Shown here piece by piece: positions 15,725 through 18,700 of a DNA stretch of 64,000 nucleotides. Source of the stretch: an uncultured delta proteobacterium. Lineage in GTDB: Bacteria > Myxococcota_A > Polyangia > Polyangiales > Polyangiaceae. Location of the stretch: the NCBI GenBank assembly GCA_963850305.1, contig CAWKKR010000008.1:1856001-1920000 (forward strand). Reading direction: 5' to 3'. Position 1 is the first letter of the stretch; each line of letters begins with the position of its first letter. A program made the position numbers.

Positions 15725-18700
15725 CGGCGAACTGCCTCCAGGTCGAAGCGAACTATGCGTGCCCCATCCCGGGAAAGCCGTGCGTCTCGACCGTGAAATG
15801 CGGCGACAAGAAGATCACCGGCAGCGAGCAGTGCGACGACGGCAACGACCAGAGCGGTGACGGCTGCAGCGCGACGTGCCAGCTCGAGTCCGGATGGGCA
15901 TGCCCGATCGTCGGGATCGCCTGTCAGGCCGCGAAGTGTGGCGACTCGCTGGTCGCCGGCAACGAGCAATGCGACGACGGCAACGATACGCCGGGCGACG
16001 GGTGCGATCAAAATTGCCAGATCGAGAACGGCTACGCCTGCACGACGCCGGGCAAGCCGTGCGTGAAGACCGTCTGCGGCAACGGAATCGTCGAGGGAAC
16101 GGAGCAATGCGACGACGGCAACGACGATCTGGGCGACGGTTGCACGCCGCTCTGCCAGCTCGAGCCGGACTGCGATCAGGGGGCGTGCACGTCACGCTGC
16201 GGTGACGGCATCAAGTTCGCGAACGAGCAGTGCGACGACGGCAACACCAAGAATGGCGACGGCTGTTCGTCCACGTGCACCATCGAACCCGGGTACCAGT
16301 GCTCGCTCATCACCTCGGCGGAACCCGATATCATCAAGATCCCGATCGTGATCCGCGACTTTACGTTCGCTCACGTCGACTTCCAGCTCGATACCTCCGT
16401 CAAGCCCAATGAGCCGTCGGGCGACGATCACGTCATCGTCGCGCCGTACCTGGGAACCGCGACGTCGCTTTACCATCAGGACGGCGGCACGGCGGCGGTC
16501 GACCTCGACCACAAGCCCGTCTATCTCCGTCAATCGTGCCATCCCACGGCCCTTCCGTCCGCGGCCAACGACTGGACGAAATGCACCCTCACGACGTACG
16601 ACGCGGACTCGTTCGAGCAATGGTATCGCGACGTACCTGGGACCAATACGCCTGTCGTCGAGACCCTGACGCTCGGTAAGATCGCGAACGACGCGTACCA
16701 GTTCGACAGCGCCGCCGAAGAGCCGGATGGCGGGCCCTCGAAGAACTCCGATGGCTTCTTCCCGATCGACTTTCTCGGCGACCAGGGCGAGGCCTGCAAC
16801 GGCGATCCCCACAACTTCAGCTTCACGAGCGAAGTCCGATACTGGTTCGAATACCATGCAGGAGCGCCGCCGACGCTCTCGTTCAGCGGGGACGACGACG
16901 TCTTCGTCTTCGTGAATCACCAGCTGGCGCTCGATCTCGGTGGAATTCACGGCGTCGAGAACGGCTGCATCACCGTGGGCTACGACCCGGCGGACGGGGG
17001 CTCCGACGTCAGTCCCGCTTGTGCGGCGCTGGGGCTCGATTGGTCGCACCAGGACGTTTCCCCGGTGACGGGTCTCGTCGACGGCAGCATCTACGAGATT
17101 GCCGTCTTCCAGGCCGAGCGAAACACCTGCGGGTCGAATTACAAACTCACCCTCTCCAATTTCCTCGCTGCCAAGTCCGTCTGTAAGAGCGTGTGCGGGG
17201 ACGGCATCGTGACCCCCGACGAAGTGTGTGACGACGGCACGGCGAACAACACGGGCGGCTACGGGAAGTGCTCGCCGGACTGCAAGTCGCGCGGCCCGTA
17301 CTGCGGTGACGGCATCGTCCAGACCGCGGACGGTGAGCAATGTGACGATGGGGTCAACCTCAGTCAGTATGGTGGCTGCGCACCCGGCTGCGTCAACGGG
17401 CCCTACTGCGGTGACGGCATCGTCCAGAGCGCCGCGGGCGAGCAATGCGACGACGGCACGAATCTCGGCGCCTACAACGGCTGCGCGAAGAACTGCGTCC
17501 TCGGTCCGCGTTGTGGTGACGGTATCGTCCAGCTCGCGGACGGGGAACAATGTGACGATCACAACCGTACGTCCGGCGACGGCTGCAGCGCGAACTGCCA
17601 GCTAGAATCCCCCCACTGATCACCGAGGGCCGATTGCTTCGAGCGTGGGGCCATCTCGGTGCTCTCGGTGCTCGGCGTGCGTTCGCACGCCTGCGCGCCT
17701 CACCCACCGATCTGACCCCACGGTCTTCGCAATCGGCCCTCGGTGGGTTTTGGTTCGAGCGAGGGGGCATGTCGGTGGTCTCGGTGCTCGGCGTGCGTTC
17801 GCGGGCTTGCGCGCCTCACCCACCGATCTGACCCCACGGTCTTCGCAATCGGCCCTCGGTGGGTTTTGGTTCGAGCGTGGATCGGACGTTTTGGTTGCGT
17901 CGCGAGTGCGGTCGACTACCGTCCGGGCATGTCGATTCTGGATCACGTGACGCTCGTCGTGAAAGACTACGCTCGCTCCAAGGCGTTTTACGAGAAGGCC
18001 CTCGCGCCGCTCGGTATCAAGCCGATGATGGAGTTCGGTACGGCGTGTGGCTTCGGCCGCGATATGCCCGCGTTCTGGATTGGCACCGGACCGACGGCGT
18101 TTCAGAAGCCCGAACATCTCGAGATCATCACCCCGACGCACATCGCGTTCGCCGCCAAGGGGCGCGCGGAAGTGGACGCGTTCTACAAGGCGGCGATGGG
18201 CGCCGGCGCGAAGGATTTCGGCGCGCCCGGGGTGCGCGCGCATTATCACCCGAGCTATTACGGCGCGTTCGTCCTGGACCCCGACGGTCACGACGTCGAA
18301 GCCGTCTTTCACGGCCCGGCGTGAGGAGCGCGAGCCGGCGGGGTCCTGCCGCCCGGTTGCTGCCGCGTGAGGAAAAATCGTCGGTTCTCGATCGGTCGTG
18401 ATCCGGTGGAAAATGGTGCTAACAACGGAGGCGTGAAACGAACCAACACGTACTTCTTTCGAGTTCTTGGGTCCGTGGGAGTCCTGGCGCTCGTGGCGTG
18501 CGGCGGGGGCAAGCCGCCTGCCGACGCGGCCACGGCCAAGACAGGTCCAGCTCCAGGTGCGCCGACGACGGCGGCCGCGCCGAGTGCGTCAGCCGGACCC
18601 GCGAGCGATGGCGGTCCCACCGCCGCTCCGGGTGCGGCACCTTCCGCGGCGACCAGCGCTGCGATTGAACCGCCGAGCGCGCCGGCGGAGCCCCCACCGG

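What a model noticed while it worked through the whole genome (the two positions that open the first line are those of the whole stretch)
17614..17869. Stop-codon-docked 130-nt hairpin element family (31 copies)
A ~125-135-nt imperfect hairpin occurs 31 times (about 22 loci) on the coding strand. It has a conserved 90-nt core and fast-evolving but always complementary 15-22-bp outer arms, and the base of its stem lies 0-5 nt from (or overlaps) the stop codon of housekeeping genes (secY, dnaK, rpoD, RNR, 6PGD, mglA, bipA...). I read it as a mobile structured 3-prime-UTR RNA module that is inserted exactly behind stop codons and acts as a transcript-end stabiliser or terminator coupled to translation termination. 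New would be a repeat class in Myxococcota with stop-codon-precise placement and an RNA family absent from Rfam.
Evidence so far: nhmmer with the 90-nt core gives 31 hits at about 22 loci, e.g. C8:687050-687195 (secY), C7:1025188-1025433 (RNR, 2 copies), C8:211993-212140 (dnaK), C1:516211-516356 (rpoD), C8:1940949-1941160 (6PGD), C8:1295147-1295292 (mglA), C11:376707-376977. In an alignment of 18 copies RNAalifold finds 39 pairs in 5 helices, 24 of them with changes on both sides. Pair count: 93.2% of 695 cells are paired vs 75.0% in 500 shuffles (0 of 500 reach it); 125 cells are doubly changed vs 40; with the partner slid by 1-3 columns pairing falls to 35-45%. A U-G pair kept in 16 of 17 copies fits the sense strand as RNA. 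The stem base lies -4..+5 nt from the annotated stop in 14 of 17 full first copies, always on [...]
(Added by a program. Inside this text positions count along the whole contig: contig position 1,856,001 is position 1 of the stretch shown here. "Call 12" and the like, gene names such as g00115 and contig names such as C1 are that model's own, and its searches are not shown. The text may have been shortened before it was handed on; [...] marks where a part breaks off. The agent that wrote the report below was given it as the finding of a first reader that could run no searches.)

Follow-up and report, generated by a model that had tools for sequence, protein, structure and literature searches.

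The report
Antisense-folding hairpin repeat behind stop codons
A 125-base hairpin repeat sits right behind the stop codons of many genes in this myxobacterium and its relatives, but its conserved fold lies on the strand opposite the messenger RNA, so it looks like an uncatalogued mobile repeat with an unknown copying mechanism rather than an mRNA-end signal.

Summary
The repeat is real: 31 hits at 22 loci, found in all 6 same-genus genomes. The stem base is −2 to +6 nt from a stop at 15 of 19 full-length loci.

In 78 copies, core stems hold 183 G·U against 9 A·C cells on the strand opposite the gene. The internal loops are the best-conserved part and 91% purine there, forming tandem G·A motifs. 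The arms belong to the element; there is no target duplication.

The tip motif occurs in many phyla. In Acidobacteria it lies inside IS1380-type MITEs. In other Polyangiaceae the stop lies 56–64 nt from the tip in 32 of 39 copies. No mobilising enzyme was linked to it. It has no Rfam match and I found no paper describing it.

Best reading: a non-autonomous repeat without terminal repeats, whose antisense single-stranded form is under selection. Earlier scan notes report look-alike elements in other phyla.

The parts
15331..17619 (+). Host ORF, 762 aa, DUF4215 cysteine-rich repeats and fibro-slime domain; stop TGA at 17617-17619
17621..17745 (-). First copy, 125-nt rod-shaped hairpin; the conserved fold (G-U wobbles, purine-rich internal loops) is on the minus strand, antisense to the host ORF
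17621..17632 (+). Gene-proximal outer arm (12 nt), starts 1 nt after the stop codon
17633..17735 (-). 103-nt core: variable stems separated by four conserved purine-rich loops (GAA/GAA, GA/GA, GGUGA/GAGAG, G(G/C)A/GA on the minus strand)
17671..17695 (-). Tip module (CGCAGGCGTRC-loop-GYACGYYGAG type) shared with hairpin elements of many phyla
17734..17745 (+). Gene-distal outer arm, complementary to 17621-17632
17746..17753 (+). Short tail between units
17754..17869 (-). Second, decayed tandem unit (116 nt: core from position 5, right arm, tail; no left arm); folds no better than shuffles
17870..17880 (+). Start of a third unit, cut off
17931..18324 (+). Downstream co-directional ORF, 130 aa; no Pfam match at 1e-4 (looks like a glyoxalase/VOC protein from recall)
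7864..7944 (-). Collapsed remnant of the same family right behind the TAG of ORF 7945-9747(-): half a left arm, tail and two partial core starts

Best explanation
A non-autonomous mobile repeat, MITE-sized but without transposase-type terminal repeats or target duplication, belonging to a hairpin class found in many bacterial phyla. SHOWN: (1) one strand, antisense to the docked gene, keeps a 60-bp rod with G-U wobbles and four conserved purine-rich (tandem G-A type) loops while stems change freely; (2) copies are gained and lost between species; (3) the element is polar: one end sits within a few bases of a fixed host boundary (mostly a stop codon, sometimes a tRNA 5' end), the other end trails variable tails and partial tandem units. 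INFERRED: the single-stranded form of that strand (RNA more likely than DNA, about 60:40) is recognised through the loops and the tip by a factor encoded elsewhere, which copies it starting from the precise end into the first untranslated bases behind a gene; insertions into coding sequence are purged, and the orientation that puts the tightly folded strand into the mRNA is less often kept. Any effect on the host mRNA's 3' end is a by-product of the sense strand also being a hairpin.
For: Opposite strand folds better in 103 of 112 cores with RNA and 98 of 112 with DNA energies. Core pairs: 183 G-U vs 9 A-C cells, 16 vs 3 columns; all pairs 21 vs 7 columns, p=0.013. Loops 95.7% conserved and 90.7% purine on that strand, core stems 82.1%, arms 63.7% (79 copies). 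Between 9 orthologous pairs, one-sided changes go to G-U on the opposite strand 18 times, on the sense strand once. Filled sites: secY 1 of 6, gnd 1 of 4, nrdJ 1 of 7, rpsD 4 of 5 with both orientations. Median distance to the nearest gene 22 nt on the left and 148 nt on the right (97 first copies). Extra units lie downstream and often start at core positions -3 to +5. Same geometry in other genera: 33 of 44 copies docked on the sense side only, 1 on the other side only, stop-to-tip 56-64 nt in 32 of 39. The same tip rides in true IS1380-type MITEs. No tie to the replichore (8 vs 11 of 19 loci, read by eye from GC skew).
Against: No mobilising protein was linked: G000 has no Y1_Tnp, IS1380 or RVT_1 match, and none of the fetched transposase or RT loci carries the element or its ends. 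No exact empty/filled junction could be read, because the relatives are too distant. One conserved pair is U-G on the sense strand (79 of 88) and was left out of the counted structure. Wobble cells are inherited, so events are far fewer than cells. Some copies persist at one site across species with pairing kept, which fits host function as well as parasitism. With DNA energies the window copy folds equally on both strands. No expression data.
Confidence: 0.5

Rival explanations
1. A host-kept antisense RNA element: the G-A strand is transcribed by convergent or pervasive antisense transcription and acts as a processing site or barrier at the exact border of the coding region; copies spread by recombination and conversion.
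For: 41 of 94 first copies lie between convergent genes against 926 of 4632 intergenic regions in G000. Orthologous copies keep pairing through 45 double changes among 81 differing pairs. Docked genes lean to ribosomal-like codon use (11 of 23 in the top quartile, p=0.015). The motif is nearly absent from viral contigs (2 matches) and plasmids. Copies in tRNA leaders are co-transcribed on the G-A strand.
Against: Most sites are filled in one species only; no U-tract follows the rod on that strand; a barrier would not need to sit within 5 nt of the stop; the same tip travels in young MITEs with 98-99% identical copies.
Confidence: 0.22
2. An ordinary MITE whose terminal repeats have decayed; docking comes from a target site that contains a stop codon (CTAG, TGA) plus purging of insertions in genes.
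For: Acidobacterial relatives are 176-177-bp elements with the terminal repeats of co-resident IS1380-family elements and CTAG-type duplications. Copies in G230 have conserved ends, and 3 of 6 show a TGA/TCA duplication. C precedes the stop in 31 of 67 docked copies against 36.6% genome-wide (p=0.066).
Against: In this genus there is no duplication (mean longest shared word 3.05 vs 3.09, n=79); all three stops are used (TGA 36, TAG 26, TAA 5); spacing varies by several bases; arms are the least conserved stems; orientation is biased 36 to 12 in co-directional regions. The young IS1380-type MITE shows no such docking (25 of 32 at no detected stop, 0 on the sense side only). It does not explain why one strand's fold is conserved.
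Confidence: 0.15
3. One reading: a sense-strand 3'-UTR RNA module that stabilises or ends the transcript, coupled to translation termination.
For: The sense strand folds (-89.5 kcal/mol); the core starts 10-16 nt after the stop, about where a terminating ribosome's footprint ends (recalled); REPs under 16 nt from a stop down-regulate translation (PMC12306157, passages citing earlier work); one conserved sense U-G pair.
Against: Wobbles and loops point to the other strand; on the sense strand the conserved loops are U-C and U-U mismatches; no terminator signature at the window copy; reading frame through the element is not conserved (distances 5-18 nt in all frames); 17 of 94 copies are reversed.
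Confidence: 0.1
4. The core inserted into the loop of existing terminator stems (IS1272-like), so the arms are host sequence.
For: Arms differ between loci and the right arm sometimes pairs with the stop codon itself (39% vs 24% shuffled, 43 copies). IS1272 targets inverted repeats without duplication (PMC5678879, abstract).
Against: Pairing ends at a fixed 12 nt from the core and the arm has a consensus; arms are alike across loci within a genome (z 3.3, 6.0 and 21.7 in G000, G001, G006); empty orthologous sites show no matching stems.
Confidence: 0.03

Closest known systems
YPAL/RU-2 and ERIC/IRU palindromic repeats of enterobacteria (PMC2229807, passages)
   Same: 100-170-nt non-coding imperfect palindromes, intergenic, co-transcribed; ERIC effect on mRNA depends on orientation; YPAL has internal inverted repeats and no TA ends.
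   Different: YPAL makes 3-26-bp duplications and ERIC has TA ends and duplications; none here. No one-strand G-A loop architecture is described in the passages seen. No sequence relation was tested.
IS1380-family MITEs (Pfam PF13701 partners)
   Same: Acidobacterial elements with the same tip motif are such MITEs, with IS1380 terminal repeats and CTAG targets.
   Different: The element here lacks those ends and the duplication, is shorter (125 vs 177 nt), and is far more tightly and directionally docked; G000 has no IS1380 match.
REP/REPIN/BIME with RAYT transposases (PMC3733652 and PMC12306157, passages)
   Same: Hairpin repeats near stop codons, in tandem arrays; GTAG-REP ends often supply TAG stops.
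   Different: REPs are 20-40 nt with a GTAG or CGTC foot; this is a 125-nt rod with neither; no Y1 transposase in G000 and no copy beside 16 Y1 loci of G001/G006.
SPRITE, BOX and RUP of Streptococcus pneumoniae (PMC3049150, passages)
   Same: Structured repeats enriched between convergent genes and near gene 3' ends.
   Different: SPRITE has an 18-bp stem and a U-rich tract like a terminator; this element has a 60-bp rod, no U-tract and folds best antisense.
[quoted passage not shown]
   Same: Intergenic multicopy element with a central palindrome GRCGTAGCGCTGCTACGCC, close to tip variants seen here (L066, L120); probably the same class.
   Different: Only the legend was seen, not the alignment, so homology is not tested; the passages give no structure, strand, stop-codon docking or mobility analysis.

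Membership tests
MITE (DDE-mobilised) | Short, non-coding, multicopy, intergenic | tested here: met
   125 nt, 31 hits at 22 loci, intergenic
MITE (DDE-mobilised) | Conserved terminal inverted repeats | tested here: not met
   Outer arms pair but are the least conserved stems, 63.7%
MITE (DDE-mobilised) | Target-site duplication | tested here: not met
   No excess of shared words in the flanks, 79 copies
MITE (DDE-mobilised) | Autonomous IS with the same ends | tested here: not met
   None among 25 PF01609 loci, 3 PF13701 loci and G000 long-range end pairs; other transposase families (IS1182, IS630, IS3, IS91) not searched
MITE (DDE-mobilised) | Presence/absence at orthologous sites | tested here: met
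   secY, gnd, nrdJ, rpsD sites; junctions not resolvable
IS1380-type MITE | CCYGCATTTCTCA-type ends and CTAG duplication | tested here: not met
   Met by Acidobacterial relatives, not by the copies of this genus
REP/REPIN (RAYT) | 20-40-nt palindrome with GTAG/CGTC foot | tested here: not met
   125-nt rod, no such foot in alignment A1
REP/REPIN (RAYT) | Copies flanking a Y1 (RAYT) gene | tested here: not met
   0 Y1_Tnp in G000; no copy within 1.5 kb of 16 Y1 loci
Intrinsic terminator | Short GC stem followed by a U-tract on the transcribed strand | tested here: not met
   No site called on the element in window 17400-18500; the one site found lies past it and matches the shuffle rate. Other loci not scanned.
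Rfam RNA family | Score over a family's gathering threshold | tested here: not met
   Only weak miRNA-hairpin matches; 20 distant loci gave one tRNA only
Retron msDNA or other retro-element | Linked reverse transcriptase | tested here: not met
   No RVT_1 in G000, G001, G005; no copy beside 8 RT loci of the genus
Structured RNA (any) | Transcription of the folded strand | not testable with these tools
   No sequencing run was listed

The most novel reading that the evidence does not exclude
The element is one member of a pan-bacterial, SINE-like non-coding parasite. The G-A strand is made as a rod-shaped RNA with a defined 3' end (for example released from tRNA precursors, where copies sit 1-6 nt before the tRNA 5' end) and is copied into DNA at the point where translation of a gene ends, whatever the stop codon. 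That would be a mobility mechanism that reads gene ends rather than a DNA target motif, and several MITE families would have captured the same module.
Probability: 0.15. Interest if true: 0.9.

Novelty: new variant of a known kind. Interest (0 to 1): 0.62.

Why it matters
A one-strand hairpin architecture with a conserved tip is kept across many phyla, with and without transposon ends, and is not in Rfam or in the papers searched. Something must read it. If it targets gene ends without a sequence motif, that is an unknown targeting route and possibly a safe-harbour insertion tool. If the host keeps it, it is an unknown antisense control element on core genes. Cultured carriers such as Sorangium make both testable.

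Tried and rejected
Expression: no RNA holder listed, and none was listed at all, so no reads were laid. RAYT link: none. IS1380, PF01609 DDE, IS110 and RT links in the genus: none. A long, transposase-bearing form with the same ends in G000: none convincing. Recurrent neighbouring protein among the 80 distant loci: none by all-against-all BLAST of 187 rough ORFs; they were not scanned against Pfam. Replichore-driven orientation: rejected. Symmetric cruciform: rejected, since it predicts no strand asymmetry. Deamination of the non-transcribed strand as cause of the wobble bias: it predicts the opposite sign (own knowledge). Stop-codon read-through signal: frame not conserved. K-turn, SRP and group II intron domain V resemblances: considered from recall, not tested beyond the Rfam scans. 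Control with other G000 repeats: an edge lies within 10 nt of a stop in 169 of 329 linked intergenic regions (a crude measure that includes this family), so nearness to stops is common here; the main other family showed no clear one-ended, one-strand docking in a rough seed-based measure. The Geobacter alignment was not seen: one supplement read was another table, 6 of 19 files were not searched, and figure PDFs may hold no text. Literature: 10 searches found no description of this class; most subscription papers, including the original YPAL, ERIC and REP-translation papers, are not in the library.

Full report
OBSERVATION. Window 17621-17745 is a 125-nt imperfect palindrome that begins 1 nt after the TGA of a 762-aa ORF. 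A 116-nt unit lacking the left arm follows, then the first 11 bases of a third. The first copy folds at z -10.7 (plus) and -13.4 (minus); the second unit has decayed and folds like shuffles. By BLAST all 6 same-genus genomes carry it (1 to 34 matches); 4 of the other 34 genomes gave only short weak matches. The host is a myxobacterium: flanking genes match myxobacterial families, relatives in the same family look like Sorangium records, and an earlier scan note calls it Polyangia.

STRUCTURE AND STRAND. I collected 112 full-length cores from 7 genomes and aligned 78 first copies with arms (copies of odd length, tandem copies and a few others were left out). On a 43-pair rod, 96.9% of 3353 cells pair against 79.1% in shuffles, 34 pairs change on both sides, and slid registers give 29.5-37.3%; RNAalifold finds nearly the same rod. 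On the strand antisense to the docked gene the core has 183 G-U and 9 A-C cells (16 vs 3 columns), the arms 45 and 17; over all pairs 21 vs 7 columns, p=0.013. That strand has the lower energy in 103 of 112 cores as RNA and 98 of 112 as DNA. The four internal loops are the best-conserved positions (95.7%) and are 90.7% purine on that strand, reading as tandem G-A motifs; core stems are 82.1%, arms 63.7%, the tip loop 53.5% conserved (79 copies). Among 9 orthologous pairs (not independent), 81 base pairs differ: 45 by double Watson-Crick changes, 18 by one change to or from antisense G-U, 1 to sense G-U, 7 to a mismatch, 10 otherwise. So many double changes suggest conversion or template switching as well as selection; copy L065 has had one side rewritten into a perfect palindrome.

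ENDS. Pairing stops 12 nt beyond the core and then falls to background; the arm has a consensus and is similar across loci within a genome. The arms therefore travel with the element. There is no target duplication. The gene-distal side carries tails shared between loci in G000 and G006 but not G001; 38 of 98 first copies have further matches downstream, many starting at core positions -3 to +5, against 18 upstream, mostly weak (both counts include chance hits and one mis-flagged tandem copy). The element is thus polar.

PLACEMENT. With my own simple gene caller, 15 of 19 full-length G000 loci have the core 10-18 nt behind a same-strand stop, that is the stem base at -2 to +6; chance is 3-15%. 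Over 7 genomes, 70 of 97 first copies with an upstream gene call have such a stop within 40 nt. Of 94 with both neighbours, 41 are convergent, 36 co-directional with the U/C-loop strand as sense, 12 co-directional reversed and 5 divergent. All three stop codons are used. In G006 about half the docked copies carry an extra 10-22-nt leader, so the stop is 23-35 nt from the core. The same end lies 1-6 nt before the 5' end of tRNA-Trp in 4 genomes and tRNA-Gly in one scored locus, where the G-A strand is the transcribed one. Orientation does not follow replication (8 vs 11 loci). Orthologous sites are mostly empty: secY 1 of 6 filled, gnd 1 of 4 (a fifth is cut by a contig end), nrdJ 1 of 7; rpsD-rpoA is filled in 4 of 5, twice each way. 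Docked genes lean mildly to high-expression codon use (one row was on a mis-called frame). Repeats in general often touch stops in this genome, so nearness alone is not special; the one-ended, one-strand precision is.

WIDER CLASS. A covariance model found diverged relatives in 6 of 120 genomes of the order, sharing the tip module. The motif strand folds better in 72 of 83 matches. In the family, 15 of 150 other genomes hold the exact pattern, none the reversed control; of 44 copies outside this genus, 33 dock on the sense side only, 2 on both, 1 on the other side only, 8 on neither, with stop-to-tip 56-64 nt in 32 of 39 despite unrelated stems. In Acidobacteria the tip lies in 176-177-bp MITEs whose ends equal those of co-resident IS1380-family elements, with CTAG-type duplications; these young copies are mostly not on stops (25 of 32 none detected by a crude ORF filter). 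The motif is rare in viral contigs (2 matches) and the element has no real plasmid match.

MECHANISM. No enzyme could be tied to the copies of this genus. A symmetric DNA cruciform cannot select for one strand's wobbles, and a DDE MITE does not need an internal fold, so a single-stranded form of the G-A strand must matter. How the precise end finds the stop is not shown: targeting tied to the end of translation, or one-ended deletion up to the first constrained base, both fit.

KNOWN SYSTEMS. It works like ERIC/YPAL-type palindromic repeats (PMC2229807, passages; PMC3184786, PMC2267715, PMC10969869, passages, no description of this class seen) and shares nearness to stops with REPs (PMC3733652, PMC12306157, passages) and SPRITE (PMC3049150, passages), but fails the membership tests for DDE MITEs, REPs and terminators. 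A Geobacter family with a similar central palindrome was listed in 2009 (PMC2700814, passage and legend; alignment not seen, supplements partly unsearched). PMC5678879 was seen as abstract and outline, PMC3372372 as passages without bearing. Rfam gives nothing. Ten literature searches found no account of the class.

VERDICT. New variant of a known kind, interest 0.62, with a 0.15 chance of a categorically new mobility mechanism.

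Noticed in passing
G000 C5:150213, C5:298448, C7:1029564, C8:719268, C8:787894, C8:830788, C8:865090, C11:73290 (L457, L461, L463, L465-L469): Eight near-identical IS110-family copies; at the end examined, seven run into the same position of a second intergenic repeat family that starts GTAG, so this IS appears to target that repeat.
   Followed up: partly
G000 intergenic regions, e.g. C11:206154-206528, C4:379351-380423: A larger REP/REPIN-like repeat family (at least 78 regions) that folds equally on both strands; G000 has no Y1 transposase match.
   Followed up: partly
window 7864-7944 (-): Collapsed remnant of the family behind a TAG: the main hairpin is gone, tail and partial core starts remain.
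   Followed up: partly
L036 (G000 C8 about 211,000-212,000): dnaK changes frame near its 3' end, probably an assembly indel; the true stop TAA is 10 nt before the core.
   Followed up: partly
L297, L298, L302 (G002, G006): Behind secY and gnd these relatives carry other repeat families instead of this element.
   Followed up: no
L118 (G002), L102 (G004), G000 C8:684304-684371, C4:23234-23320: Short forms in which the upper stems are deleted but the base of the rod still pairs.
   Followed up: no
L384, L407, L411, L414 (G230): A relative with fixed ends and, in 3 of 6 copies, a TGA/TCA duplication; the ends recall IS5-family ends, but no matching transposase end was found in 7 loci.
   Followed up: partly
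L323, L324, L327, L328, L337, L338 (Acidobacteria): IS1380 elements and their hairpin MITEs often sit directly against each other at shared CTAG sites.
   Followed up: no
window about 19280-19640: A 21-bp-type tandem repeat tract seen as repetitive ORF translations.
   Followed up: no
L124-L139 (G006, G001): Thirteen and three RAYT-like Y1 transposase matches, unrelated to this element.
   Followed up: partly
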